Shown: positions 277 through 16,970, numbered from the stretch's first letter. The stretch: DNA of 52,188 nt from Catajapyx aquilonaris (GCA_000934665.2 JYFJ02002706.1:1-52188), one strand, 5' to 3'. Numbers and translations are program-made. The notes: generated by a model from the sequence alone, not told the origin.

Positions 277-590
277 TTAGGATACCGTCTTGACAGTTTA
301 TGGCAGTCTGATGGCAATTTCAAACTACAGCATGCTGACATTGATTTTCAAGCTTCACAGGCTTCTGAAAAATAAGGGGAGAAAGAACTATGAGGCACGT
401 AATAATGTAGGTGGTGTGGGAAATCCTATTAAGGACATTGTTGCCTCACTGTTAATATGCCACCCAAATTTGTGCATATTTGTACAAAGGATCCCTGCCA
501 GGATTTTCTTCTCAGCCACAATTTTTAGTAGAATGTGTTTGTAATGTCAGATGAAAAAGTGAGTCTAAACGTAACATAATTTTGTTCCAG

Positions 591-1630
591 CTGAGCATTG
601 CAGACTACACACCTCTGACATCCCCAATGGTGCCTGCACTCGTGGTCCACTGCATCAATGAGATTGAGCACCGAGGGCTGAGTGAGGTTGGGATCTACCG
701 CATCCCTGGGCCAGAGAGTGAGGTCAAGGCTCTTAAGAGTCGCTTCTTGAAGGGAAAGGGACCGCCAACTATATCTGGGATTGATGTCCACACACTTTGT
801 GGTTGCCTCAAGGACTTCTTGCGCTCCCTGAAGGACCCACTAATCACTCGCATTCGTTGGAAGGACTTTGCCAAAGCAGCAGAAAACCAGGACCCTCAAG
901 ATGCCCAAACAGACATGATGCAGGTCATCTCAGACCTTCCACCGCCCAACAGGGACACATTGGCCTTCCTGGTCTTACATCTGCAGAAGTAAGGGTGGAC
1001 ACATATTCTTGAGCATAAAAATAATATGGGCACCTCCTTTGGGATTTGCATATGAGCTGTCATTCTGATAGCTCCAATTCAATGGTAACATACATGAAGC
1101 AAACTGATGCAAATATTTTTGTTCTGGCAGAGTTGCTGAGTGTGGCGACTGTAAGATGCCAGCCTCTAACCTGGCTAAGGTGTTTGGGCCTACCATAGTT
1201 GGTTTCTCTGAGGTTGATCCGAAGCCAACAACCATGTTGATTGAGGTGTCCAAGCAACAAATGGTATGTCTTCTTTGAACATCCTGGTTTTCCTTCCTGA
1301 GATTCAGTAACCACTCAAATTTGTGGTCCGCAGGTTATGGAGCGACTTATGGCTCTACCGACAGACTACTGGTCCACATTTGTGAACGTTGACACCAGCT
1401 TCATGTACACCCCTCAGACACGCGGATCAGCAGCACTGAACTACTCAGAGTCAGCCAGGTCATTAGGCACTCCTAGAGTTGCTTCTGGGTGAGTTTCGTT
1501 TTTTTTTCTCTCTCAGAATGATAGCAGCAGCAATAATTACGATGTAATAATATATCGTGTCCTCATATGTGGAACTTCTTATCATTGCAGCATGTTCAAA
1601 AGGAGCCTCTTCCAACACCATGGCAAATGA
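591..1630 (+). CDS. RACGAP1: Rac GTPase-activating protein 1 (CYK-4/Tumbleweed/MgcRacGAP) paralogue A, 3' part only (RhoGAP domain and tail)
   Basis: Exons 591-988, 1131-1263, 1334-1488, 1591-1630(TGA), all GT-AG with consistent phases. Protein: LSIADYTP..PALVVHCINEIEHRGLSEVGIYRIPG..LKDFLRSLKDPL..LPPPNRDTLAFLVLHLQKVAE..KMPASNLAKVFGPTIVG..DYW. Arginine finger CGC at 699-701 is intact. 5' exons lie outside the window. Confidence 0.93.
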
Positions 1631-2079
1631 TGTGCTGCTCTACTGGATGCTGCGTTTCTCTCCTGCCTTTTTCTTGAGCGTGTGGAATATCTGCTGTGTA
1701 TTTTGTTAAGCTTGGCCGTATGTATTCATGGCAAATAATTTTGATTTGAAAGTGTTCAAATTTATGGAATATGGGGTGACATCACAGTGGGCCTTTAAAA
1801 AAATTGCCCTTGGGAAAAAGTTTTAATTTACATCAGAAAGTATTCCATTATAATTCAGTCATTTGGCATCCTGTCATCACACATTGCACACAAGTTGAAT
1901 AGTTGCAATAATTACTGTGCTCTCAGTCTTTACTATCAGGAAATTTTAGTAATAAGTTTATCGCAATATAACATCTGAACTCAAGGCACACGTAATGGAC
2001 GTGAAGCACAAGACCTGCAAAAACTGTGTCATGGTTCCATATAAATAAGGAACCTTTTTGCTGCAGCACCACTCCTCGT

Positions 2080-2200
2080 CCCTGGGAGATCCTCAAGAAA
2101 GCCTATGCAAACCTGTAGAGGGCTCATCGAAACTCTTTCCACATGAGAAATTCCTGTCTGCTCTTGGGATCAAACCAGAGACATCAGAGGTGGAAGGCTG
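2080..2200 (-). mobile_element. Degenerate tRNA-derived SINE-like remnant
   Basis: cgaaactc..ccacatgag..cttgggatcaaacc; the reverse complement carries a B-box-like GGTTTGATCCC. The same motif order recurs at 43705-43790. Confidence 0.35.
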
Positions 2201-4812
2201 TAGGTTTCTTATGATATATTGCAGGAATTTTAATATACGATAATAATTGTGCAGTTCTGGCACCAATTGAGTTGAAAAGGATAGAGTAAATGTAATGAAA
2301 TATTTTTCTGAATTCCAGATAACTGCCCAATTAAAGTATAATGGTAGGGTTTTTGATATTTCATTCCCAACTCTTTCGTCTTGTGCTTCTTGTCCGTTAT
2401 GTTTCCCTGATGTCAGATGTTATATTGTTGTGATGCTGTTATAAAAGTGAATCATTTATGCTGATGTGATTCCGTAGTGGATTGAAAAGTCAGTCTTTAG
2501 TGGAGTGCAGAGCCTGACAGTTGAAGGGTGTTGACATTTTAAAAAGTATTTTGAACTGGGAGAAAGAGAGGAAAGTCACTTCCAGTTTTTATTTGACAAC
2601 TAAAAGATGATGCTGACTCCTCTGATGTAAGAAAAAAATGTCATCAGTACTTAATTGCAGTGACCAATAAGTCACCATTTCAAATGTTTTATGAGAAAAA
2701 ACCTCATTTCATGATTTATGTGATAAGTAGAGAGAATCCAAGACATTGTGTGACAATTATTTCGTAGGTGCTTTCAACTGCAGCTGAGTGCAGAACCTGA
2801 AAGTCATTTTCCTGGTCGTGACTATCTGTTTAATTTATGAAAGCACCTGTAGTACTGGAACCAAATGTCTCTGAATATTAGTCTAAAGTATTTTCTTCAG
2901 CAAAAGTCTTAAGTGTGTCATTGCAAAACTGAACATTCCATTTTTTGTATTCAATTACCATGGCATTCGTTGCAATCTTTATGCTGGATTTCACTGCACC
3001 AAACAGCAAAGGTTTACCTGCAGCTGTAGGCTTGTGAGAAGAATACAGTATAAAAGAAATTAGCAGCCTTGTAAGCTCATCATGACATGATGTTTGATGC
3101 TATATATTGAGACTATTTTTTTGGAAGATTGGTTTATAGTTGTTTATATACCATGCAACAATCAGTGATATTAATCAGTACACAGACTATTACCAAAGTT
3201 ATAACCTCTCTTGTTGGCCTTCTTGGGAAGGGAAACGGGCAATTCCCATTAACTAATGCTGATGATGGGGATGCGTAAGTCGTCAGAAGCTTGCTTCTTG
3301 CTATACATTTACATAATGGAAGAATATGTTGTTCTAACCATGATGTAAGGACTTTTTTTTAAATAAGTTGAGCTTGGAACAGCGTAACAAGATTATATCT
3401 CAAATGGGATGGGAATATAATTTTTAATACTATTATTTTTGTTTTTCTTGATTTGTACTTTTATACGGTTGGTGTACCATCCACATTTCTACAGCAATAA
3501 AGCTGCTTGGACCAAAGTGAGCTATTTTGTTTTATTAATAAATTTGCTTCATTAAAGTAGTACCATGGGGCAGTCACAAGGGAGGTGCCAATTGGGGGAC
3601 CACAATCAAGAATCTCCTGGCAAGATGTGATGCAACATGTCAGACCTGTTTTTTTTCTGCCTTGTAAATATGTTAAATGCAGAATTTTCATGAACCAATC
3701 AGTCAGGGAGGAACACTCCCTCTAGGAGCAGCCACTGCTTTTCTCAGGTGGGCTATGCACTGATTGCTGAGGGCTGGCCAAAAGAGATGCACGTGGTGAG
3801 TTGGTGTTGAATCTCAGGTTCTTTAACATATCCAGTCAAATGACACACATCCTGGTCTTGGGACAATATCAGACAGGTGCTGTTGTAGGTTTCGAGGGAT
3901 GCTGCTTAATTTTTGAGAAGATTAAAGTACCCCTCTTTCTACCCTGGTTGAGCTCGTCAAATAAATTAAAGCCACAGAGAGTTTCTCATGAGACCCACGC
4001 TGTCATAGCCATGCAGATCAGTACTCCCTTCTCTCCTTGTAGCCCAGGTTCAAACGGACGACCTTGGGAGAATATACAAGTAACAGTGAATTTAAATCAT
4101 AAAATAGATTATTTTAAATAAACTGTACATTATCTGGGTGTAAAATTGTCCTTTATGTTGTTGTATTCACTTATGAGAAGGTAGCAGCTTTAAATAACAT
4201 TCAAAATTAAATTACATTCAAAATAAAGTTGTGAGGTTAGGAAGGCTAAAATGGATCAAAGTTAGAGCAGGCAAAATGACACCCCAACGAAAACCAAGAA
4301 GTTCCAAATGAATTTTAAAATTGCTGAAATGGTCCTTTTAAAAGGGGTGGAATAAGTCACGAAATACACATTTAAAGTTTTATGAAACTGACTGCTGTAT
4401 TTAGGTCCTGCAGTTATGCACTTATTAATTTGACAAGAAAATGAAGCCCAGTCAAATTTGCCTCTGGGAATGTGTAGAATTATTGAACGTGCTGTAGTTG
4501 TGTCAGGGTAATATTGGAAGAGTAATATTGGGTAAGCACTACGCACCAGATAAAAGGCAGTTCTTGGCCTTCAGTCAGTCTACTTCCACACGCAAAGTAG
4601 GTAGCTCCAGTTGATTCCTCCCCATTCTTTCCTCCTCCTCTTTTTCCTTCTGCATTTGTGAAGAGGTCAACACCAGCCGCACAGTGTACGAGTATAATAT
4701 GGTAATTCTGCACATTTAACATTTTTGTGTTAATATGATAATTTGTGTTAGAGGATTTCTTCATTGGCATTGGCTTGTGTAGTGTGAACTGAATAATCTT
4801 TCTGCTTAGAAG

Positions 4813-7800
4813 ATGTCGAAAAGCCTGGTCCAAGAATTTGATGAACTCACTCGGCAATCTTCCACCTTTCATAATGGCTGTGAAACAGGTTTGGTTGACA
4901 ACATTTGCTGTGCATTTACAGCAATAATACATTTGTGTATCATTTTTTAGAATTCCTTCAGTTCGTGGGAAACCAGCGGGAATGCATGCGTGGATGTCTG
5001 TCAACAAAGGATCATAGTCGGAAGCTACAGCAAGAGCTGAGAGATGTCATCAAGAACAATGAACGCCGGGAAGAGGCAGCTCGACGTCTCCTTAACAATG
5101 AGATGGCAAAAAGGCGACATGCTGAGGGGAGAGTCAAAGAATTAGTAAGGATTCAATGTAGTACTTTCATCTCAGGATTAGTTTTCGAATGTTTGATACG
5201 GTAATATACTACAGCAAGCTGAATTTCTTTTTGAGATTTGGCACTGGTCAGGGCAGTGCAGTGTATCTCGACAAACACTTTCATGAGCATGATTGAGTTG
5301 ATGGCAGTGCCATGTACGCTGAAGCCAGTAAGATGGCATTTCTCGTAACCTAGATTTTGCAGTAACAGGCTCTCAACTGTGCAAGGTGGTGTAGGTTTAC
5401 GTAAGCCACAGTGTGGAATGAAATGTGATGTATTACTAGCACTTTTATTTGTGTCTGTTCTTGATATCCAGAAATATATGTAGTAGCTATAATATTTTTG
5501 ATTATACAGTATGCATGACTGGATTTTACAGGAGACAATAATGTTGAAGATAAGAGATGTGGTGCAGCATGATGATGATAAATTTAGCAAGACCATGGCT
5601 ATTTGTGAATGTATCTCAACTGCATCAAATGTGACGCCAGTTGTTGCATTGAGAGATTCAGAAGGGTCTATGTTCGATGACCTCGACTTTGACCGCTCGC
5701 AGGATGACATGTGTTCATCCCGAATCATACGGTCTAGCAGGCGGCCCTCCCTCCTCAATGTCACGTCTACCTTTCTTAGACCAAAACAAGTCGTACCAGT
5801 TCATGTTGTTCCAGACATACAGGTAAGGGGTGTATATACAGTGGGGATTTACCTTATTTTACTTATTCTTGCTCCATTGCAGATAATTCGACCTTCGTCC
5901 AGTAATGGAACTACAGTTTGCGTCACTGAGGCAAGTTCTTCAAGACAGACTCCTATGGTTGGAGCAGCGTATCAAACGAATGGGTTTCAAAATGATCATC
6001 AAAACACACCATGTGAAAGGGGCTTCCCGATGACACCTCGAAGTAGTTCGGTCCTTTCCCTTGCTTCCTTGGACGAGAAGACACCCCTTGCTTGTTCCAC
6101 TTTCTGCCAGTCTGGTCCCAGCCTGGAAGCAGCTGGCATTGCCAATGGCCGTTACCCAACTCCATATGTTGTGCTTGAAGGTGCTGCTGTGGCCACCACT
6201 TCGAATTTCCAGGAGAGGGGGCACACATTTTCCACCAAGACATTGGTGAGATTTCTCAAGTGCTGTGGCTGTGGGAAAATGTGAGTATTCCAATTTACTT
6301 CATTCATTTTGTTTTTCTCTGGATACAGCAACATATATCTTGATTTGTTGGAACTCTGGAATGAGATTATTACTTTTTTAATCTTTTTGCAATATCTATC
6401 TGTATGGTGTTGTACAGTTTTGTACATTTTAGCTTAAGTTGAACTTTCTTTTTCCATACCATCGATAATAATAATTATTATTATTACAGGGCCAAGTTTG
6501 GGCATTCAGCACTGAAGTGTGAGCTCTGCAATGCTATCTGTCACATGGCTTGCGGCAGCAAGGTTCCTTTGCCATGCATTCCTGTCAATAAAACTTCTCC
6601 TCGGTCGTTCTTGGTATCTATGCCTTTCCTACTTTTTCCACACGTCATGTATGAAGGTCATGTAGATGAAAATGAGCCACAGTCATTGGGAAGAGAACCA
6701 GATGAGTTTGTCGTGACATCGTGTACACAAAACGAAGGCTGTACCAGTGTAGCATTATGACACACTGGGAGTAGGACATTTGGTCACTCGACACAGTCGC
6801 AGTGTGCTTTTGTTCAGGACCGCACCCATTCAAAAAGACTGTCCACTCAGACATGGGCCTTTGTTTTGTGTATAAGATGTCACGACAAACCCATCCAGAA
6901 ATTTGTTGTGAGACCATGGCTTGTTTTCATCTGAATGACCCTTACATTCAGAACAAGCACTTCTATCACTGCCTCATTTTAATTCGCATGCACTGATGAG
7001 GATATCGTCTCAAATTACATGAATTTCATTTTATACTTCGGTACTGATTCAAGCAAAAGGTAACTTCTCACATCTGGAGGAAGGGACCAGTCCAGCTCTT
7101 GACCTGGATGGGTCCTGTGGATGTGTCTGGCAACAAACAGGCTTGCGACTAGGTCACTTCCCACAGATATGAGAGTAGACCGTCAAGTAAACAAATCCAA
7201 CATCCCACTGTTTTTTTGTGGTTTCACTTTGTTTCATTCAGATTACGTGACACAGGCTTCTGGGATGATACCTGCACAATTTATAGGCCTTCAGCATTTG
7301 CTCAAATTGGCATGAATCAGAGCCCTTCATGATTTTACAACTGTGGTTTTTGTTGCAGGTGGCTCTTGCTGACTGTGCCCCAACAATTCCGCCAATGATA
7401 CCGTCACTGGTCGTGCACTGCATCAGTGAAATAGAGCGCCAGGGGCTGAAAGACATTGGTCTTTACATACTAAATGTGCCAAGGACTGAAGCCGACATAC
7501 TCAAAAATAGCTTCTTGAGAGGAAAGTATGGGCCTCCCAATCTATCTGGTGTGGATATCCACGTGCTGTGTGGTTGCCTGAAGCTTTTCTTTCAATCCAT
7601 GGAAGAGCCACTAATCACTTGCCTCCACTGGAAGAAGGTTGCAGAGGCAGCAGAGGGTAATGGAGACCTCAAGATCATCATCTCCGATCTTCCTCAACCC
7701 AACAGGGACACCCTCGCTTTCTTGATCTTGCATCTGCAAAGGTATGCAATAGTATAAGGAAGGTGTCGCCAGGTGAATCAATTACTTTTTCAATGTAATG

Positions 7801-8550
7801 TAAACATCACCCATTACTCCAGTACATCCAGACCTAAAAGTTCTCCCAGAAATTCTAATAAGAGATGACGATGCTTTAAGAATGTCACAAGATGGGTGAT
7901 GTATACCTGTACTTGATTTTTTTCAAAAGGTTTTCCCAGATATCAGGGTGATGAGAAACACTTTCAATGAAATGTGTGCATTGAAGTGGTGACAAATCAA
8001 GCCTTTTCCCCATAAAATCAGGGTAGCAGCTGAGCACGAATGCAACAAAATGTCAGCTTCTGTACTGGCCAAGGAATTTGGCCCCTTCATAGTCGGATAC
8101 TCAGAAGCTGATCCTAGGACGACTATCATGGTGAATGATGTGTCGAAGCAAAAGATGGTAAATGTGTAATGGTGAGAGTTAGGTTATTTTAAGTCCATGG
8201 TAAACTGAGAATTCTCCATTTGATGTGCAGGTGGTGGAAAAGCTGATGTGTCTCCCTGCCGACTATTGGTCAGCATTTCTAGACATGAAGGTCACTCGTC
8301 CACAGGAGTCACTGGTGTACACAGCATCTGTTGAGACTCCCAAGGTGCCTGCGAAGTAAGCCCTGATTTTAATCCCTATGGTACTGCATATGAACCAACA
8401 TGGCATGTCACTTTCCAACACCGATCACATTTAAACAGATTTAACATAGTTCAACCTTGGTTTAATAATAATAATAAACTAATAATAGGAAACTCTTATT
8501 TCAGATTTTTTGCCAAGAGGAAAAACCTTTATCAATCAAAGAAACGCTGA
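4813..8550 (+). CDS. RACGAP1: RacGAP1 paralogue B, full length (coiled coil, C1, RhoGAP), arginine finger replaced by Ile
   Basis: Exons 4813-4888, 4951-5144, 5532-5822, 5883-6280, 6490-6613, 7359-7741, 8022-8157, 8231-8355, 8505-8550(TGA); GT-AG, phases consistent, no internal stop. N-terminus MSKSLVQEFDELTR..EFLQF. C1 domain HTFSTKT..CCGC..CELC..CHMAC..LPC. GAP domain has GLYILN in place of GIYRIP. Confidence 0.9.
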
Positions 8551-8664
8551 TGTCGGATTTGAAGTACCTGTTTGGAAGGTTGAAGAAAAGTGGTCAATAA
8601 TATATCATAGTGTAAATAGTGATGCAATGATTAGAGATGATTGGAATTGACCACTCGCTTTTCT

Positions 8665-8774
8665 ACAATTTTAACAATTTTTCATCATTTTAGAATCATT
8701 CACAAGTGTAATATGAAGTACAATATATTGTACTTGTGAATGATTCTAAAATGGTGAAAAATTGTTAAAATTGT
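8665..8774 (+). repeat. Long near-perfect inverted repeat (43 bp arms) downstream of the copy B stop codon
   Basis: 8665-8707 acaattttaacaatttttcatcattttagaatcattcacaagt is the reverse complement of 8732-8774 with one mismatch; 24 nt spacer. Confidence 0.9.
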
Positions 8775-8818
8775 TAAAACAATCAAAAAATCACATATTT
8801 GATTGTTTCTTAGCTGCT

Positions 8819-9047
8819 GGGCCAAGATGTAAAAGTTTGCCCGTTTTGCAGTGCTATTAATTAAGTGTTTGTCCCGAAAATTTTCACTCCTTTGTACCTT
8901 TTAATATTAATGTTCTGTGGTTTTTTGGCGCGGTTTTTTGATTTTGTTTTTTTTTTATCTGAACGGGCCAAGATGTAAAAGTTTGTGCTGTATCATCCCT
9001 TAGCCCATTTTGCAGTGCTATTAGTTAAATGTTTGGCCCGAAATTTT
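8819..9047. repeat. Local direct duplication (~65 bp), second copy with an ~18 bp insertion
   Basis: gggccaagatgtaaaagtttg..ccc(g/a)ttttgcagtgctatta..tgtttg..cccgaaa at 8819-8884 and 8965-9047. Confidence 0.8.
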
Positions 9048-9325
9048 TATTGTTTCAATTTGTGCAAACAGTATTTGGGTCACAAATTTGTTCAAATCAT
9101 TATCATTAGTTCAAATAAATGGAAGTGTGACGTTACATATAATTGTTTGTAGTACGACCCCTTTTGTATCCAGCTGGATGCAGTGGATTGCACAAGACCT
9201 GGTTGGGGCTGCTTATTTTCTGCCCTGGGCAGAACTATTACAGTTCTGCCCAGGGCAAGGATCTCTCCATCTCTCATCGGTCAGAATGCACCCTACGCAC
9301 TCTGAAACGGTGATAGGAACGCGCC

Positions 9326-9347
9326 CCAATCCCAATCCAAGATGGCG
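9326..9347 (+). promoter_or_regulatory. Putative promoter/5' elements of the zinc-finger gene: two CCAAT boxes and a YY1/Pho-type AAGATGGCG
   Basis: CCAAT at 9326 and 9332, AAGATGGCG at 9339-9347, about 160 bp upstream of the inferred ATG. Motif match only. Confidence 0.4.
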
Positions 9348-9502
9348 ACTGTCTCTTTCTGTTAAGAAGACCTTCCTTTTGAAGATTTCCACCTCGTTTA
9401 GATCCCCCTTCCTTCCTTTTCCATCCCCCTTCTGGTGTAGCAACACCTGAACCATCTGTCGAACATCAGAGCCGGAGTGAGGGCTCAAGAGGTGCACAAG
9501 CC

Positions 9503-12212
9503 ATGGCCACTCTGGAGTCTCTGATGGAAGTCTCCCTTCGCAATGAGAAGCTTCTGGAGTGTTTGGTCTCTCGTGTGGACTGGTGTCAGGAGGCCATTGG
9601 AAGGATGGAGGGTTGGATGAAGAAGAAGCGTGGAAGGGAAGGGGCAGAAGGTAGACTGAGAGAATTTTCATGATCATTTAGGAACCACTCTGTAATCATC
9701 GGATATTAATATACAGCTTTGCATTCCAGACGTTGCTTCAGGCCAGTTGCTTCCCACCGAGTTTGTTTCTGTCGACACTGGAGATGCAGGCAGCGAGTCA
9801 ATGCCTGTGGGTAACATTGAAGAGGACATAAAAGTGGAGGAAGAGGATTGGGAACCAGAGCAGGTGATAGACTGAAAATTAAAGTGCCAGTAACCTTTTT
9901 AGTCAATTGAATAAAATGTGTTCTTGCTTTTTAGGGGAGCTGGATTAGGGGTGAAGCAGAGACAGCCAAAAACATCCGTGAAATCGCTTCACTTGTCAGC
10001 AATGTTGATTCAGAATTTACCTCGGCAGAAGTTCATTCCCACGGGATTCAAGGATCAGACGTCCTTCAAGAGGGAACACTGAAGCAGGAGACGGGCATGG
10101 AGAGTGAGTTATGGAGCCAGGTATGGTCATTGCTTGATTACTTGAGGAGGTGGAAGCTAAAAGCGGCTCAATTGACCAAACCTAATTTCCAGGAGAAAGT
10201 GCTCTACTTTTCAGTTTTGGTTTGGTTTGGTGCAAATGTGAATCCCACCATTTCCTCCTCTTGTTATTGTTCCAAGATTAGTCATGTCTAACTAGGTATT
10301 GGTTCATTAGGTGCACTTTTGCTCTTGAAAATTTTCATGGCAGTGCCAGCTCCTAAGGTGCCAAAAGTGCAGATAGCTACTTTTGACTTCCACATCCTCA
10401 CATGATTGTGTAGTGTTTGTACAATGTACAGTACATAATCTTGTAAAAAAAATTATTTCAATTATGGGACAGCCACGATGTAAATGAAGGAATTAAATAA
10501 TTTTTGATAAATCTTGCTCAATATTTTGTTGAATGCTGCAGAGATACTTTGTTGAAAATAATACGTAGAATACTCCCAAACGTGTTAACATTTTTCTCTA
10601 ATGACATATTGAAATAATTTTTGTCATGCTTGAGAGATAATTAATGCACATTGTTTCCATGGAAATGTGGCAGCTGCAAACAAGGTCGAAGAATTAATAA
10701 GGAAGTCATTATGCCAATGCATCATGTGTTGTTACCTCCGCACATTTATATCAATATGGTAGCAGTGCCATATTTTATGACGAGTTTAAAGCAGGGAAAC
10801 AGTCGGCTTGCAATTGTGATGATTATATTTTGGCACTTGAGGAACTCGCTACTTGTGTCAGTTACCTGCCAGATTTCCACTGGTGAATTATTGGTAATCC
10901 ATGTCTGATTAGATTATAATAGTCTTCATTTATTCGTGATTTTTCCGCAGGCCTCCACTTCTGCAACCTGGGAGAACACTGAGTCCATCAAAGTTGAGGC
11001 GATTCCATTAGAGGCAAGTGTTTCACATAATAGTTTAGCACATGGCCCATGTCAAAGAGTAAAAATGAGGATGCAGTTTACTGTAAGTAGTGTGAATAGA
11101 ACTGTTTAGAGAACAAGAGCAGATTAAGTACAAGTTTTACTGAATATTGCAGGTTGATGAACCAGGAAAGACCGAAATCAGTGACCTGACATTGGGTGTG
11201 AATGACTCCAGCAATGAACATGCCCCATCCAGTCACCCAGCTGATGATCCTGGTTGTGGCTCAAGTTGGAAAAATACCCAAAGGAGACAAAGGAAGGTAT
11301 GTTTGTCCCCTGTGTCCGAGTGTTCCAATGTCATAAGTGCATTAATTTGTAAGATTTTGTTGAAAAGTAAAGAAAGACTTGCACTTTCATACATGTATGT
11401 CAGTTTCAGTTTATGTAGTGAATCTTCAGAATTTAAGACATTGTGCATTACTTTTTGATTCAACATCGCATTGAAACTTTGGTAGAATTAGCTGAATTGG
11501 CTTCTATCTTGGATTTAAGGAAGGCCACAGATTGTCATGCAACTAATCCCAACAACTTTTGAATTCTTTGTAGCGCAAGCAACTAATGCAGCCAACTGAA
11601 ACAGAGAGTTCAAACATCACTGATGGCTTCTCTGCTGAGTACCAGGGGACTGCTGGTGCTTTGGATACAGTGAAAGGACAGGAGCTGTCAGGAAAGAAAT
11701 GGCATCAGTGTGATCAATGCTCATATGAAACGCAAGACAGTGCAAACTTCAGGAGGCATAAAATAGGTCACAGAAGTGGTGAAGAGGATTTAGGTTGCAG
11801 TGGTCACGAAAAGCGATTTGCCTCTAACCAATACATGCAGTTGCATTATCATCCTGACCCTCTTGGTGTTGCCGCTTTTTCTTGTGAAGTTTGTGGTAGG
11901 AGGTTTAGTGAGAAGAGCAGTTTGGAGGAGCACAAGCTGACCCACACTGACAAGAAGCAGCATTCATGTGAAATATGCAAAAAATCCTTCACTCATGCTC
12001 GACAATTGAAGTATCACATGGATGTTCATACTGCAGAAAGTAACCCTTGCTCCTATTGTGGCAAAATGTTTCGGTACAGGTCTCAATTGGCTGAACATTT
12101 GAGGGTCCACACTGGTGAGAAGCCGTATTGTTGTGACATATGCGAGAAGAAGTATGCTCGTCGTTCTGGCTTAAATCATCATAAGAAAACCCACATATCG
12201 GAAGGGTCATAG
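9503..12212 (+). CDS. C2H2 zinc-finger protein (five intact fingers plus one degenerate; acidic N-terminal half)
   Basis: Exons 9503-9650, 9730-9863, 9935-10120, 10951-11013, 11153-11296, 11574-12212(TAG); phases consistent if intron 11014-11152 is GC-AG. The last exon has CxxC..HxxxH fingers and an HTGEKPY linker. IKVE motifs occur in exons 2 and 4. The start codon (gccATGG) is less certain than the finger exon. Confidence 0.85.
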
Positions 12213-12480
12213 AGTTGCTTCATGTGTGATGAAACATGTTCCACATGTTAATGCAGGTTGGTGTTACGCCTTCTCAATGCTCCAATTTGTGTCAGAAAAT
12301 ATCTCCTTGCAATTCATACCTGAAAAAAAACATGTAAAAGTCCACCAAAGGCTATCAGTTGTACTTTTAAAGAATGAGGCGAGTTTGAGCAATACCTCCT
12401 TTGTGTTACTTACATTCATTAAAACTTACTTAAACCCATAACCTAACCATGTTGCTTCCTCAGCCAAGATCCAAACTACT

Positions 12481-13205
12481 TAGGGTGGTTCAATGTAGCT
12501 TTATAAGTTTCCTGGGTCTGGCATATCGAGAAAGCATGGACAGTGGTTATGGCTGTGTATATGGCGTATATGTAAAATTAGCCACACATCTCAGGGTCAC
12601 ATTGCATGTCGCTGTTCCAGTATGACCGCATGCGCACCTGATTAATCAACAAAAGCTCGCCACAAAAAGTGGACTCTTGCTCTTCTCATTGATTTTCTGG
12701 ACGCAGGGGAAACAACAATTTCTTTTCCTTATTGCTGAACCTTGGACCATCTGAAATCTGCATTTGTGTCACAATAGTGCAGATCTCCTCACAGTTCCAT
12801 TGGTCTCATTTGTGTGATGAAAATGCCAGCCCCTGCCTGCCCCCAATCACTCGCACTGACCCATGGCATTGCAGATTTCAGTTGCTCATCCTCATTTGGC
12901 CCCGAGAGACTTCCACATACTCTTTCTAAATTTGGAGAAGGTATTGGAAGGTCACTGTTTTCCTACGAACCATCATATATCACATATATCAGTGGGCTAT
13001 CTCCTTATGGCCCAGAGCCATACTTTCTTTGTGGGTTGAGTTTGAAAAGTTAGTGACACATTGGGACAAATGACTTAAAATTGTAGGTGATTATGTTGAT
13101 AAGTGAAGAAACTGTGTGGCTAACTGGAAACATAAATTTATTTTATAGAAATAAAGTTGCTTCAATATGGCAGACCCAGGAAACATATATTGAACCACCC
13201 CCGTA
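12481..13205. mobile_element. Non-autonomous TIR element (MITE, Tc1/mariner-like ends), ~720 bp
   Basis: Left 12483-12536 gggtggttcaat..tttcctgggtctggcatat..aagca matches the reverse complement of 13158-13200 (gggtggttcaat..tttcctgggtctgccatattgaagca). TA dinucleotides lie near both ends. No transposase ORF inside. Confidence 0.7.
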
Positions 13206-14164
13206 CAATAAAAAGCACAAAGAGTGAAAAAAAAAGCTCCTGATTTGAATTTTAAAACTATTTTCAACTTTTAATTTTGATATTTGCAATTGATCATAAT
13301 TATCATGACCTATTTATCCACTTACCTTGCAGTGAAATCAGCACTTTGCACCTACATGTATAAAAATTATATGCTGTAATATTTACAGCCATTTACTTAC
13401 ACGACTGGCTGGTCAGAAGAAAGTGACATTTTAATGTATGGTAACTTTGCTTTACAGGGTGTCATAATGGGTAGGTTTAAAACTGAAACTGTTTAAGTCA
13501 TGAGTAAAATTTGGTGACTTAGTGGATTGATCATGATTAGTGTCCTGCACTTTTAGTGCAAAGAGTAGCATATTGACTGTATGTTTGGAGTAAATTGCTG
13601 ATAAATGTGAACATTGAAATTTTTCACTTGTGAGTTGTGTTGTTTCACAGGAGAATTTTTCCCATTCCATCCTGATTCCATTGTAATATAAGTTTTTCCT
13701 GATACACACAAATGTAGGGTACTTGTAGGACAGTTTCACGTATTTATTATGCAATGAAGGCTCACATGGCTCAGTGAGTGTGTCTGGCAAAAGTTTGAAT
13801 AAAAGTTGCAACCACAACTGACTGCGAATAGCACATTGAGTGCCTATGAAAATGTCACTCCCAATATATTTAGAGAAAAAAATAAACCTGAAAATCTATC
13901 AGCTTCAACCTGGATAATCACATATTAAATGATATGAAGTCATTCCTGTCCTTGAAACTTCTCTGAAAATGTCTAGTAATGGAAAGAATGGGCTGGGATG
14001 CAATGAGTGTTAATCTGAGAAATGTTAACATTTTAATAATAATTGCAATCCAAATATAAAATACAGAAAGTATCTGTACCGTAAATCCATCCCTGTAAGA
14101 AGTATTGTACAGAAACTTGTGTTACAAAAATTATATCCTGCTTCTGACTTCAATAGTTGGCAGA

Positions 14165-16764
14165 TCACCGGAAGAGACTGAACATGCTGAAATGAAGAAA
14201 ATCAATATAAGTCATTGGTAAAATATGAATATAATGTGCATATGGAATTCATGGCTGACCTTGATGTGACCTTGGGCATCCCCCGGGTTGGTGTCCCAGA
14301 ACCCTTTTGTGGGGAATACTTAAGGGCGGCACCAATACTAAGGAAGGTGGACCAGTAATCCACAGATATGGACATAAGTCTTTCAATTACCTAAGGAAAC
14401 AAGAGTAAAAGCACAAATGTCAGTGCATACCAACAATTGTGAAGCAAGCTTGTGGCAATGAAAGGGTCTGAAGTAGCGAGCGTACCTTTTGCTGCTTGTA
14501 CACCTCTTTGGTTATAGTGTCCTGGTCAGGATCAAATGCAGAAAAGCCAACTACAGTGGGTCCAAACACTTTGGCCAAGCTTGAGGCTGACATCTTGCAC
14601 TCAGGGCTATCTGCCACCCTAATTAAAATAAAAATGTTGTACTATATCGCTCAAAAACATAAGAGACGATTTTGCATTGAGTCAAATGCAAAAACGTCTC
14701 ATGTTTTTGAGCGATATAGTACATAAGTAACTAATTCTTCTACTTTGTTCAATATTTTGCACAACAACAAAATGTCCGAATACAGATAATGTAGCACCAC
14801 GCACATTGTGATTTTTGCCTGATTTTAAACCGTTTGCACTGGATCAATGGAACTGCTCGTCCTTACTTTTGCAGATGTAATATGAGGAAAGCCAAGGTGT
14901 CCCTGTTTGGCTGAGGAAGGTCGGACACAGCCTGCATGAGGTCAGCTTCAGAATCATGTGGATCTTTGTTCTCTGCTGCTCTCACAAATTCTCTCCACCT
15001 GATGGTGGTGATGAGTGGCTCCTTGAGGGTGCTCAGGAAGAACTTGACGCAGCAACACAGCACGTGAATCCTAACCCCAGACAGGTTGGGAGTTCCCCGT
15101 CCTCTCAGAAAGCGGTTCCTCAAGGCCTTCACTTCTTGCTCAGGGGCTGGGAAGCGATACAGGGCCCTCTCGGAAAGGCCCCTCTGCTCTATTTCATTGA
15201 CACAGTGCACCACAAGAGCAGGGATCATCGGTGGTAACAATGGTGTGTAATCACCTAACGGCAGCTGTTAGGGAATAAAATGCAGGACATGTAGCAAAGA
15301 ACACGTATAATTTTGGAATATGCGTACCTTGACTCCATTGGTTGCTGAAGTTGTTACGCTAGGTATGCATGGGAGTGTTACCTTTCCTTTGCAAATCCTG
15401 TGGCATGTGGTATTGCATTCTTGGCACCTCAGGACAGATTCAGCCAGTCTCATTCTGAAGTTTTAAAAGGAAAATGAGCGTTAACAGCAAAAATAATGGT
15501 GACAAAATGCTGTGGTGAATTAAAACAATACACACACAGCTTTGTTGTGAAACTAACCTTTTCCCACATGGCTCGCAAACATCAAGACGTATGTTAGTCT
15601 TATCCACAAAAGCATGTGGCCTCTGGTTGAAACTACTCGGTGACCCCGAGTTAATCCTGCGAATCAAAGTAGATGAAGCCCCACCACAACGTGAATTTGG
15701 CACAGGTCTCTTGCAACCCCCAAACTTGCTTCTGCTTGGTAAACCGCTTGGACAATCATCAGATTCAGCCGTATCACTACATGGCAACTTGGTATCACCA
15801 TGCGGATTTGATGTTACATCAGTAGTTGCTGGTTTACGTTTAGGTACGGATGAAGTGGTTGCAGCTCCACCTCGACGTGTGCTAACAACTGCAGAGGTCA
15901 GTATTTCTGTCTCATTCTGAGTAATTTTTTTGGACTTAGTAAGTGTGTTTTGCTTCTTAAACTGTCTTAACCGTTGGCTGTCCAGGTTGTCATCGGAGCG
16001 ATCAAAGCTGAGGTCTGACAGATTGGTGCCTCCGGAGTCACTTCCACCAAATTTTTGTGCAGTCAGGTGAAGGAGAGAGTCGCACATGAGGAGTGCTTGA
16101 GATTTATTATGGCGGGAGGACTCACTGCTATCCAAAATGAGGAGATCCTTCAGCTCATGTAGTCTAATCTCCTGCCAATAAGACATGTTAATATTAATAC
16201 CACTATGAAATAAACAAGATCAAAGTGTAACTTTGGTTTGCTATTATTTTTCTTTATGTAGGTTTGCTGTGGTCAAGACTATACCTGGCCAATTTTACCA
16301 TCAACTAAATTTTGCAACATGGATTACATTATACTGTTAAAATAGTCGTTTTTTGTTGATTAGGTCATGTTATGCTTAAATTTAAAATTATTATCCTTAT
16401 TACCAGTGTCTCACACTTGGTGTCTGCAAGCTTCCGTTTAAGTGTCTCACGCCCAAGTATTCGACGAGCATGTTGCAACTGTCGCTCGTGATTGACTGTC
16501 TTCTTCCCTGCCTCCTTCAGCTCCTGCTGTAGTCGACAGCACTCTTTCCGTGCAGCCATCCCCGCTTGCTGACATTCCCATTGTTTCTTGATAAACTCCA
16601 GCAGCTCTAAAAACACACACACACACATCAATTTGTAAACTTATTGATGAACCAGTTTGCCACTTACCTGTTTCACATGCATCGTAACTGTCAGACGAGT
16701 GGTTGCAGAGGTCATCAAACAATGTCACTACTGATGATGACATCTCAGCTTCACACGAATCCAT
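14165..16764 (-). CDS. RACGAP1: RacGAP1 paralogue C, full length (coiled coil, C1, RhoGAP)
   Basis: Exons 16764-16668, 16606-16404, 16171-15558, 15454-15328, 15264-14867, 14618-14486, 14390-14260, 14186-14165(TGA); GT-AG, phases consistent, start ccgccATGG. GAP exons are 398 and 133 nt, identical in length to copy A. Motifs VVTLFDDL, LSDLSFDRS, C1 HAFVDK..CEPC..CQEC..CHRIC..LPC, ALYRFP, LPQPNRDTLAFLILHLQK, LAKVFGPTVVG. Confidence 0.92.

Positions 16765-16907: not shown

Positions 16908-16970
<63 letters not shown>
16908..16970. repeat. (TAA)n microsatellite, ~21 units
   Basis: Directly visible perfect trinucleotide run. Confidence 0.97.

What the first reader, a model, noticed from the sequence alone, without database searches (positions are those of the whole stretch)
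591..16764. Three RacGAP1/CYK-4 paralogues in 17 kb with graded loss of GAP catalytic residues
Seen: three copies share intron positions and phases, so they are DNA-level duplicates (one inverted), all with open frames. Key motifs: A = GIYR / LKDFLR / NLAKVFGP; C = ALYR / VKFFLS / SLAKVFGP; B = GLYI / LKLFFQ / VLAKEFGP. Established: RacGAP1 is the GAP subunit of centralspindlin, usually encoded by one essential gene, and these positions correspond to the RhoGAP arginine finger, the conserved Lys/Arg pair and the conserved Asn. Inference: a lineage-specific family of active, weakened and dead centralspindlin subunits, possibly for germline or incomplete cytokinesis (ring canals), or driven by genetic conflict.
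Basis: partly seen in the sequence, partly recalled or inferred. Interest (0 to 1): 0.8.

Follow-up and report, generated by a model that had tools for sequence, protein, structure and literature searches.

The report
Three RacGAP1 paralogues, one GAP-dead
An arthropod genome carries three neighbouring, transcribed copies of the cell-division regulator RacGAP1; one copy has lost its catalytic arginine and two have lost GTPase-binding residues, a pattern described so far only in parasitoid-wasp venom genes.

Summary
The window holds the 3' half of copy A (+ strand), a complete copy B (+, 590 aa) and a complete copy C (- strand, 574 aa). All are RacGAP1/CYK-4-type genes with canonical GT-AG introns at the same positions and phases. 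B has one extra 60-nt intron. Contigs of one public run are spliced exactly at the predicted introns of all three genes.

The copies are old. They share 53-61% protein identity, dS is saturated and the introns are unalignable. They form one clade (100/98) with branch lengths A < C < B. Omega is at most 0.26. B keeps 58 of 68 and C 61 of 67 family-invariant columns, so neither is a decaying pseudogene.

A keeps all four GAP determinants. C has lost the second Arg and the Asn. B has lost those two and the arginine finger, which was invariant in 218 of 218 orthologues. B and C keep the N-terminal motifs and the C1 zinc ligands, and show no signal peptide.

Best reading: B and C are non-catalytic or weakly catalytic scaffold variants of the centralspindlin GAP subunit. 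The germline and genetic-conflict ideas are untested.

Finger-less RacGAP1 duplicates are already published for parasitoid wasps. Unstudied ones sit in damselfly and beetle annotations. I therefore rate this a new variant of a known kind, of moderate interest.

The parts
591..2118 (+). Copy A (3' part only; upstream exons lie off the window). Coding exons 591-988, 1131-1263, 1334-1488 and 1591-1630 (stop), then 3' UTR to about 2118. Encodes 241 aa: the GAP domain and C-terminal tail, with all four GAP determinants.
   Evidence: Model. All three introns are spliced in record 1 of run X1, which runs on to 2118 with 0 differing letters. Pfam RhoGAP E 4e-31.
699..701 (+). A: arginine-finger codon (CGC, Arg). 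Lys at 810-812, second Arg at 822-824, Asn at 1168-1170.
   Evidence: aligned with human RacGAP1 GLYRISG.
4813..8550 (+). Copy B, complete CDS of 590 aa in 9 coding exons: 4813-4888, 4951-5144, 5532-5822, 5883-6280, 6490-6613, 7359-7741, 8022-8157, 8231-8355 and 8505-8550 (stop). A non-coding 5' exon ends near 4700.
   Evidence: model 'Bsp'. Joints listed: 4700>4812, 4888>4951, 5144>5532, 5822>5883, 6613>7359 and 7741>8022. Introns 6281-6489, 8158-8230 and 8356-8504 were not among the listed joints; 9 joints were not shown and repeats at 6458-6491 and 8461-8490 were skipped.
7467..7469 (+). B: codon at the arginine-finger position is ATA (Ile). Lys kept at 7581-7583. Second Arg replaced by Gln at 7593-7595. 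Asn replaced by Val at 8062-8064.
14165..16764 (-). Copy C, complete CDS of 574 aa in 8 exons: 16764-16668, 16606-16404, 16171-15558, 15454-15328, 15264-14867, 14618-14486, 14390-14260 and 14186-14165 (stop).
   Evidence: All 7 introns are listed as CT..AC joints (GT..AG on the - strand).
15154..15156 (-). C: arginine-finger codon kept (CGC, Arg). Lys kept at 15045-15043. Second Arg replaced by Ser at 15033-15031. Asn replaced by Ser at 14581-14579.
6219..6613 (+). B: C1 (phorbol-ester/DAG-type zinc finger) domain, split by the phase-2 intron 6281-6489. The His/Cys ligand pattern is kept.
   Evidence: Pfam C1_1 on the second half alone gives E 2.9e-4, below the curated cut-off. Alignment with orthologues.
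15328..15620 (-). C: C1 domain, split by the intron at the same position and phase (15455-15557). The His/Cys ligand pattern is kept.
   Evidence: Pfam C1_1 on the second half gives E 6.3e-4, below the cut-off. Alignment.

Best explanation
This is a lineage-specific tandem family of three RacGAP1 (CYK-4/Tumbleweed) genes in an arthropod placed among insects.

A is the slowly evolving, catalytically complete copy and presumably the canonical GAP subunit of centralspindlin. An early duplicate gave rise to B and C, one of them by inversion. Both are transcribed, spliced and held under purifying selection.

B and C keep the modules that build and place centralspindlin:
- the N-terminal kinesin-6-binding and coiled-coil motifs;
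- the acidic Ser-rich motif that sits where ECT2 is bound in other animals;
- the membrane-binding C1 domain;
- a folded RhoGAP domain.

The B/C lineage lost two GTPase-binding determinants, the second Arg and the Asn. B then also lost the arginine finger. B should therefore be unable to stimulate GTP hydrolysis (a pseudo-GAP), and C should bind its GTPase poorly and be at best a weak GAP.

I infer that B and C act as scaffold variants of the centralspindlin GAP subunit, as homodimers or as heterodimers with A. They would deliver membrane tethering and RhoGEF activation without the GAP-dependent steps.

Shown: the gene structures, splicing, the clade, rate asymmetry, constraint and residue states. 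Inferred: loss of activity, binding to kinesin-6, and the cellular role.
For: - Family membership: Pfam and PDB matches.
- Gene models: GT-AG throughout, with shared intron phases.
- Transcription: spliced contigs with 0 differing letters in the listed pieces.
- One clade: 100/98, with B+C at 97/81 and end branches A 0.19, C 0.43, B 0.80. This tree has 40 rows, made of 37 of the 218 proteins then held plus the 3 copies, over 238 columns. A full-length quick tree gives the same clade at 98.
- Rate asymmetry by Tajima-type tests: B is faster than A with 5 of 5 outgroups (chi2 5.9-11.5). C is faster than A with 2 of 5 at chi2 above 3.84. B and C do not differ (chi2 0.2-0.5).
- Age: dS is 1.4 or saturated, while dN is 0.25-0.42 in the shared part. 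DNA similarity is limited to GAP exons at 67-73% plus three short B-C stretches of 69-84%, and nothing aligns in the introns.
- Constraint, omega: 0.25-0.26 for A-B, 0.09 for A-C and 0.04-0.17 for B-C.
- Constraint, columns: in columns at least 95% invariant among 218 orthologues, B keeps 58 of 68 and C 61 of 67. In columns under 50% conserved, B keeps 38 of 157 and C 37 of 165. Outside the GAP-to-C-terminus part, B keeps 20 of 21 invariant columns and C 18 of 20.
- Residue states sit at sites invariant or nearly so in 218 orthologues.
- N-terminal motifs and C1 ligands are kept.
- No hydrophobic N-terminus: the maximum 10-aa Kyte-Doolittle value is 0.45 for B and 1.28 for C.
- Literature: proteins lacking the arginine finger are catalytically inactive, and R323 and N391 are binding determinants (PMC8305018, passages). 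CYK-4 R459A and R459A/K495A/R499E separate catalysis from Rho binding (PMC11565784, abstract and section 5).
Against: - No activity, binding or localisation was measured.
- Omega values rest on saturated dS and are rough.
- The B+C grouping could be long-branch attraction.
- Only one run, of unrecorded library type and tissue, shows the transcripts. Contigs cannot give expression levels.
- A's N-terminal half is off the window. Its completeness and its ability to pair with B or C are unknown.
- No genome is held. A further, more canonical RacGAP1 elsewhere, or more copies upstream, cannot be excluded.
- B has lost 9 of 47 invariant columns in the GAP-to-C-terminus part, against 2 for A and 4 for C. 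That could mean relaxed constraint on this domain rather than a new role.
- Three of B's eight coding introns were not among the listed joints.
Confidence: 0.55

Rival explanations
1. B and C have left cytokinesis altogether. They would be neofunctionalised RacGAP1 derivatives used for something else, as in parasitoid wasps, where RacGAP1 duplicates became venom or virus-like-particle proteins. Other options are GTPase-sequestering proteins or nuclear proteins.
For: - Two wasp lineages independently made RacGAP1-derived multigene families in which most members lack the catalytic Arg. In Venturia some keep C1 and one keeps the coiled coil (10.1101/2023.06.05.543686, passages).
- B and C evolve about twice as fast as A.
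Against: - B and C keep the full N-terminal region, the C1 ligands and nearly all invariant columns outside the GAP domain: 20 of 21 for B and 18 of 20 for C.
- Neither has a signal-peptide-like N-terminus.
- The window clade does not group with Hymenoptera.
Confidence: 0.17
2. C, and perhaps B, is still an active GAP with changed substrate choice or regulation. This would be ordinary subfunctionalisation of an enzyme. The lost Arg and Asn would be compensated by other contacts.
For: - C keeps the arginine finger and the Lys.
- Among 156 RacGAP1-like domains of 132 cluster representatives, variants at the second Arg or the Asn with the finger kept are not rare. Examples are RKRS (7 domains), RKKN (5) and RKQN (4).
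Against: - Among the 218 closest orthologues the second Arg is kept in 215 and the Asn in 210 of 213.
- Both are named as binding determinants (PMC8305018).
- For B, no Arg is available. The Arg five residues downstream aligns with an Arg that human RacGAP1 also has (cdRt), so it is not a relocated finger.
Confidence: 0.15
3. B and/or C are transcribed pseudogenes in slow decay.
For: - Catalytic residues are lost.
- The branches are long.
- B has lost 9 of 47 invariant columns in the GAP-to-C-terminus part.
Against: - Open frames of 590 and 574 codons persist across 8 and 7 coding introns, all GT-AG, despite saturated dS.
- Omega is at most 0.26.
- Retention is 85-91% in invariant columns against 22-24% in variable ones.
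- Both are correctly spliced in RNA-derived contigs.
Confidence: 0.04
4. B and C are antagonists that poison or titrate centralspindlin. They would be dominant-negative regulators, possibly evolving under genetic conflict such as meiotic drive or sexual antagonism.
For: - They keep the assembly modules but lack catalysis, which is the make-up of a dominant negative.
- Their rate is raised relative to A.
Against: - No sign of positive selection could be tested.
- Overall omega is low.
- B and C evolve at equal rates over the full length, which does not suggest an ongoing arms race in one of them.
Confidence: 0.08

Closest known systems
RacGAP1 / MgcRacGAP / CYK-4 / Tumbleweed (RacGAP50C), the GAP subunit of centralspindlin
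   Same: The same architecture (N-terminal coiled-coil region, C1, RhoGAP) and the best sequence match by far. Copy A has every catalytic determinant.
   Different: There are three linked genes instead of one. B lacks the arginine finger, and B and C lack the second Arg and the Asn. Binding to kinesin-6 was not tested.
RacGAP1-derived RhoGAP families of parasitoid wasps: Leptopilina venom RhoGAPs (LbmGAP family) and Venturia canescens calyx/VLP RhoGAPs (bioRxiv 10.1101/2023.06.05.543686; passages read)
   Same: Lineage-specific duplication of RacGAP1, faster evolution, and substitution of the catalytic Arg and other GTPase-contact residues in most members.
   Different: The Leptopilina copies are truncated to the GAP domain behind a signal peptide. 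Most Venturia copies are truncated and carry a nuclear signal. B and C here are full length, have no signal peptide, lie next to the parent gene and do not group with Hymenoptera.
Finger-less 'rac GTPase-activating protein 1-like' annotations in other insects: Ischnura elegans XP_046398097.1 (623 aa, C1+RhoGAP, Ser at the finger), Hetaerina americana XP_071454340.1 (Gln), Henosepilachna vigintioctopunctata KAK9872925.1 (Gln)
   Same: RacGAP1 paralogues, some of full-length type, with a non-Arg residue at the finger column.
   Different: They arose independently. The Ischnura pair are sisters inside Odonata, and the window clade is separate at SH-aLRT 97. The papers my searches listed were not on them, though no search named these genera or accessions. 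The Ischnura copy keeps the second Arg and the Asn.
Engineered C. elegans CYK-4 alleles R459A (catalytic) and R459A/K495A/R499E (Rho-binding interface) (PMC11565784)
   Same: The same three positions are involved. B carries natural changes at the R459 and R499 equivalents. C carries a change at the R499 equivalent only.
   Different: B and C keep the Lys (K495 equivalent) and also lack the Asn. They are separate genes beside a wild-type copy, not replacements of it.
Human RhoGAP-like pseudo-GAPs (ARHGAP36, OCRL1, DEP1/2, FAM13B, p85 alpha/beta; PMC8305018)
   Same: A RhoGAP fold kept without the arginine finger or the binding determinants, with non-catalytic roles.
   Different: Those are old, unrelated RhoGAP subfamilies. 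Here the pseudo-GAP is a duplicate of the centralspindlin subunit that keeps all its other modules.
Drosophila RacGAP84C (rotund RacGAP), a second RacGAP1-like gene with a male-germline role
   Same: A lineage-specific second RacGAP of the MgcRacGAP type linked to the male germline. This rests on my recall plus two things seen: the title of Toure et al. 1998 in a reference list and a passage linking RacGAP84C to a male semisterile phenotype (PMC3362292).
   Different: It was not retrieved by my searches, so its residues and its relation to B and C were not tested here.

Membership tests
RacGAP1/CYK-4/Tumbleweed | RhoGAP domain most similar to RacGAP1 among RhoGAPs | tested here: met
   PF00620 scores E 4e-31 (A), 6e-20 (B) and 7e-26 (C). 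Human RacGAP1 chains are the top PDB hits for all three, with the next family more than 10 orders of magnitude weaker. The copies fall inside the arthropod RacGAP1 tree.
RacGAP1/CYK-4/Tumbleweed | C1 zinc-finger domain directly upstream of the GAP domain | tested here: met
   Met for B and C. The His/Cys ligand pattern aligns with orthologues. Pfam C1_1 on the second-half exon alone gives E 3e-4 and 6e-4, below the curated cut-off because an intron splits the domain. A's C1 lies off the window and could not be tested.
RacGAP1/CYK-4/Tumbleweed | N-terminal kinesin-6-binding / coiled-coil region and acidic Ser-rich motif | tested here: met
   B and C align over the conserved FDDL, RLQ..L, AR.lL and rdlL motifs and the S.G..SD.SFDRS.DD motif. 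They keep 20 of 21 and 18 of 20 invariant columns outside the GAP-to-C-terminus part. This is sequence evidence only. A is not visible.
RacGAP1/CYK-4/Tumbleweed | Catalytic arginine finger | tested here: not met
   Not met for B, which has Ile where 218 of 218 orthologues and human RacGAP1 have Arg. Met for A and C.
RacGAP1/CYK-4/Tumbleweed | Lys / Arg / Asn GTPase-binding determinants (p50RhoGAP K319, R323, N391) | tested here: not met
   A has K, R, N. C has K, S, S. B has K, Q, V. The requirement is met only by A.
RacGAP1/CYK-4/Tumbleweed | Forms the centralspindlin heterotetramer with kinesin-6 and is needed for cytokinesis | not testable with these tools
   No genome is held, so the partner kinesin is not available. 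Spliced proteins may not be sent to the folding tools.
RhoGAP-like pseudo-GAPs | RhoGAP fold retained without the arginine finger | tested here: met
   Met for B only: Pfam E 6e-20 with Ile at the finger. Loss of activity is inferred from PMC8305018 and was not assayed.
Parasitoid-wasp venom/calyx RhoGAPs | N-terminal truncation with a signal peptide (Leptopilina) or truncation with a nuclear signal (Venturia) | tested here: not met
   B and C are full length. Their N-termini align with RacGAP1 N-termini and are not hydrophobic. A nuclear signal was not tested.
Parasitoid-wasp venom/calyx RhoGAPs | Origin by duplication of RacGAP1 within Hymenoptera | tested here: not met
   The origin from RacGAP1 holds. 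However, the window clade is separate from Bombus, Venturia and Leptopilina RacGAP1 and from their derivatives.

The most novel reading that the evidence does not exclude
B and C are dedicated subunits of a non-catalytic centralspindlin used where a cytokinetic ring must be arrested and kept, namely in germline intercellular bridges (ring canals).

In C. elegans the CYK-4 catalytic arginine is needed to release centralspindlin from the cortex, and the Rho-binding surface is needed to recruit it (PMC11565784). A paralogue without the finger would therefore stay put, and one with a weakened binding surface would be recruited only through C1.

[quoted passage not shown] B's two Ser-to-Asp changes in the ECT2-binding-type motif would make its RhoGEF engagement independent of Polo kinase.
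Probability: 0.12. Interest if true: 0.75.

Novelty: new variant of a known kind. Interest (0 to 1): 0.45.

Why it matters
Whether the GAP activity of CYK-4/RacGAP1 is needed for cytokinesis, and what the GAP domain does besides catalysis, has been argued for some twenty years (PMC5627578, PMC4552957, PMC3432774 and PMC11565784, seen as passages or listings).

This locus offers natural counterparts of the laboratory separation-of-function alleles. It holds a complete copy, a copy with a damaged GTPase-binding surface and a copy that also lacks the finger. All three are expressed and selectively maintained side by side.

The survey adds a second point. Finger-less, full-length-type RacGAP1 paralogues arose independently in several insect orders, which suggests a recurrent non-catalytic use of this protein. 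That goes beyond the venom case already published.

Tried and rejected
- Whole genome: none is held. Copies upstream of the window and A's 5' half could not be examined.
- Earlier notes of this scan: none on this genome or on look-alike sequence. A word search returned only unrelated prokaryotic arginine-finger notes.
- RNA runs: no RNA holder is listed. The single run X1 has no recorded library type. I treat it as RNA-derived only because its contigs skip the introns. Its tissue is unknown, so nothing can be said about germline versus soma. Contig depth was not used to rank the genes.
- B's introns 6281-6489, 8158-8230 and 8356-8504 were not among the listed joints. Their splicing and B's last exon rest on the model alone.
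- Close orthologues of B or C: none found. The best identities were 56% (302 hits among 470 candidates), 64% (914 among 1770) and 59% in the full-library search (1160 hits, 150 listed). The age of the duplication relative to speciation and branch-wise dN/dS therefore could not be obtained.
- Relocated arginine finger in B: rejected. The Arg in B's vpRt aligns with the Arg of human cdRt.
- A large MAFFT alignment placed a 2-residue insertion and Asn at B's finger column, whereas HMMER and the 3-way alignment place Ile there. No alignment puts an Arg there.
- Signal peptide: rejected on a simple hydropathy scan only. No dedicated predictor was available.
- Naming the organism: the tree places the clade among insects at 92/93, which is not a starred branch. 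The nearest unnamed representatives gave no help: one is a JGI record without a name and one is a flatworm on a long branch.
- YN00 and NG86 failed or returned saturated dS for A-C and B-C.
- Structure and complex prediction were not run.

Full report
WHAT IS THERE

The window is eukaryotic DNA of about 42% G+C. tblastn with arthropod RacGAP1 proteins fetched hits three places only: 588-1504 (+), 6473-8296 (+) and 14259-16039 (-). Nothing matches in 18-52 kb.

I read all exon borders and built models in which every intron is GT-AG and every frame is open.
- Copy A is cut by the window start. Its last four exons (591-988, 1131-1263, 1334-1488, 1591-1630) give 241 aa.
- Copy B (4813-8550, + strand) gives 590 aa.
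- Copy C (16764-14165, - strand) gives 574 aa.

Pfam finds RhoGAP in all three, with E 4e-31, 6e-20 and 7e-26. Human RacGAP1 is the best solved relative of each.

Intron positions and phases are identical in the parts that can be compared. That covers three introns in all three copies and seven between B and C. B has one further 60-nt in-frame intron (5823-5882).

ARE THE GENES USED?

No run on record as RNA was offered. The one run that holds the stretch (X1, library type not recorded) nevertheless has contigs that skip the predicted introns with GT..AG ends.
- A: 3 of 3 introns. Its contig runs on to 2118, which is the 3' UTR.
- C: 7 of 7 introns.
- B: a 5'-UTR intron (4700>4812) and 5 of 8 coding introns, including the 60-nt one.

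The other three B introns were not in the listing. Nine joints were not shown, and low-complexity stretches next to two of those acceptors were skipped.

Listed pieces carry 0 differing letters, and cover is poor or absent over several introns and intergenic bins. I take this as RNA-derived evidence that all three genes are transcribed and correctly spliced. It comes from one study, tissue unknown. Depths of contigs were not used.

HOW OLD, AND WHO IS THE PARENT?

In the shared GAP-to-C-terminus part the proteins are 53% (A-B), 61% (A-C) and 53% (B-C) identical. At DNA level only the GAP exons still align (67-73%, plus three short B-C stretches of 69-84%), and nothing aligns in the introns. 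Synonymous divergence is 1.4 or saturated.

Two trees give the same clade.
- Careful ML tree of that part: 40 rows (37 of the 218 proteins then held, picked for taxonomic spread, plus the three copies), 238 columns. A, B and C form one clade (100/98) with B+C as sisters (97/81). End branches are A 0.19, C 0.43 and B 0.80. The clade lies in the insect group at 92/93.
- Full-length quick tree of 47 rows: the same clade at 98.

Relative-rate counts agree. B has about twice as many unique changes as A with all 5 outgroups (chi2 5.9-11.5). C exceeds A significantly with 2 of 5. B and C do not differ over their full length.

A is therefore the conservative copy. B and C descend from one early duplicate, although long-branch attraction could inflate their pairing.

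PSEUDOGENES OR WORKING GENES?

Pairwise omega is 0.25-0.26 (A-B), 0.09 (A-C) and 0.04-0.17 (B-C) in the shared part, and 0.11 for full-length B-C. These values are rough because dS is saturated, but they are far from 1.

A test that does not depend on dS points the same way. Among alignment columns filled in at least 80% of 218 orthologues:

Columns at least 95% invariant: A keeps 45 of 47, B 58 of 68, C 61 of 67.
Columns under 50% conserved: B keeps 38 of 157, C 37 of 165.

Losses follow the family's constraint profile, which neutral decay would not do. Open frames of 590 and 574 codons, intact splice sites and splicing add to this. I reject decay.

WHAT HAS CHANGED?

The four columns in question were compared across 218 retrieved orthologues.

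Arginine finger: Arg in 218 of 218 orthologues; A Arg, C Arg, B Ile.
Lys: Lys in 218 of 218; A Lys, C Lys, B Lys.
Second Arg: Arg in 215 of 218; A Arg, C Ser, B Gln.
Asn: Asn in 210 of 213 filled; A Asn, C Ser, B Val.

HMMER aligns B's Ile with the Arg of human GLYRISG. B's Arg five residues further on aligns with an Arg that the human protein also has, so it is no substitute finger.

A review names the Arg/Lys pair (R282, K319 in p50RhoGAP). It says that RhoGAP proteins without the finger are inactive, and it lists R323 and N391 among the binding determinants (PMC8305018, passages).

In C. elegans CYK-4 the same positions were mutated on purpose (PMC11565784, abstract and section 5). [quoted passage not shown] R459A/K495A/R499E removes Rho binding and impairs its recruitment.

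The invariant-column losses are uneven. Outside the GAP-to-C-terminus part B keeps 20 of 21 invariant columns and C 18 of 20. Inside it B keeps 38 of 47 and C 43 of 47.

The N-terminal alignment shows three things in both copies: the conserved N-terminal motifs, the acidic Ser-rich motif and the full His/Cys pattern of C1. In that Ser-rich motif B has Asp at two positions where the orthologue consensus has Ser. I recall, without a call to support it, that this motif holds the Polo-kinase sites that recruit ECT2. [quoted passage not shown]

MOST LIKELY MECHANISM

A is the ordinary centralspindlin GAP subunit. B and C keep everything needed to join kinesin-6, to dimerise, to reach the membrane and probably to engage the RhoGEF. 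The shared ancestor of B and C lost two GTPase contacts, and B then lost the finger.

B should be a pseudo-GAP and C at best a weak one. They would act as scaffold variants, alone or in mixed dimers with A, uncoupling ring assembly and membrane tethering from GAP-dependent steps.

The residue states, selection and expression are shown. Loss of activity, partners and cellular role are inferred. The germline/ring-canal idea gains a mechanistic rationale from the C. elegans result on delayed cortical release, but it has no direct support here.

COMPARISON WITH WHAT IS KNOWN

RacGAP1 duplicates that lose the catalytic Arg are published for two parasitoid-wasp lineages (10.1101/2023.06.05.543686, passages). 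There they are venom or virus-like-particle proteins. Most are truncated, and the Leptopilina ones carry a signal peptide.

A search of 1.84 billion cluster representatives with B's GAP exon gave 1160 hits, none above 59% identity. I examined 132 new representatives containing 156 GAP-domain matches. Of these, 16 domains in 9 proteins have a non-Arg residue at the finger column. By name the nine proteins are:
- Venturia (2 proteins);
- Leptopilina (2);
- the damselflies Ischnura elegans and Hetaerina americana;
- the ladybird Henosepilachna;
- two unnamed Logan proteins.

Four of the nine carry C1 plus RhoGAP. A tree places them as independent events, and the window clade stays apart at 97. 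Cockroach plus termite share an older paralogue that keeps all four residues, and a leaf beetle has a recent pair.

The kind is therefore known. This case differs in being a tandem set of full-length, non-secreted copies with stepwise loss next to the intact parent. The papers listed by my literature searches did not describe full-length finger-less RacGAP1 paralogues outside the wasps. That statement is limited to those searches and that library.

VERDICT

Novelty: new variant of a known kind. Interest 0.45. [quoted passage not shown] The wasp precedent and the unstudied damselfly and beetle copies lower the surprise.

Noticed in passing
window 9383-12212, + strand: A C2H2 zinc-finger gene lies between B and C. 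Its last exon ORF (11574-12212) has at least four fingers (Pfam zf-C2H2 E 8.5e-22). Run X1 contigs over 9792-11233 show clustered differences and joints with foreign letters (9852>9952/9956), as expected if paralogous zinc-finger transcripts were laid on it.
   Followed up: partly
window 16908-16970: A perfect (ATA)21 microsatellite lies about 150 bp upstream of C's start codon. Short AT-rich triplet runs also sit just before two B acceptors (6458-6491, 8461-8490) and were skipped by the read-laying tool.
   Followed up: no
window 5600-5660 (B exon 3), protein motif FDDLDFDRS: In the conserved acidic Ser-rich motif (orthologue consensus LSd.S.s.sEDD), B has Asp at two consensus-Ser positions, while C keeps Ser. 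If these are the Polo-kinase/ECT2-binding serines, which I recall but did not test, B would be phospho-independent or unable to be regulated.
   Followed up: partly
proteins P0225, P0236, P0285, P0322 (not in the window): Annotated or assembled RacGAP1-like proteins of Ischnura elegans, Hetaerina americana, Henosepilachna vigintioctopunctata and an unnamed Logan contig lack the arginine finger (Ser, Gln, Gln, Glu). Three of the four carry C1+RhoGAP, and they arose independently of the window's copies.
   Followed up: partly
proteins P0053 and P0018; P0059 and P0070 (not in the window): Periplaneta americana and Cryptotermes secundus share an older second RacGAP1 paralogue that keeps all four catalytic residues. 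Gonioctena quinquepunctata has two near-identical copies on one contig.
   Followed up: partly
proteins P0001, P0219, P0230 (not in the window): Several gene models hold repeated GAP pieces. The Danaus plexippus 748-aa protein has a half GAP domain followed by a full one, which explains its doubled score. A 1352-aa representative holds nine further copies of a roughly 40-residue GAP segment between two longer partial GAP matches. An ostracod (Cyprideis torosa) model holds two full GAP domains reading R, K, D, S. They may be tandem duplicates merged by annotation.
   Followed up: partly
window 27502: A single N in the sequence.
   Followed up: no
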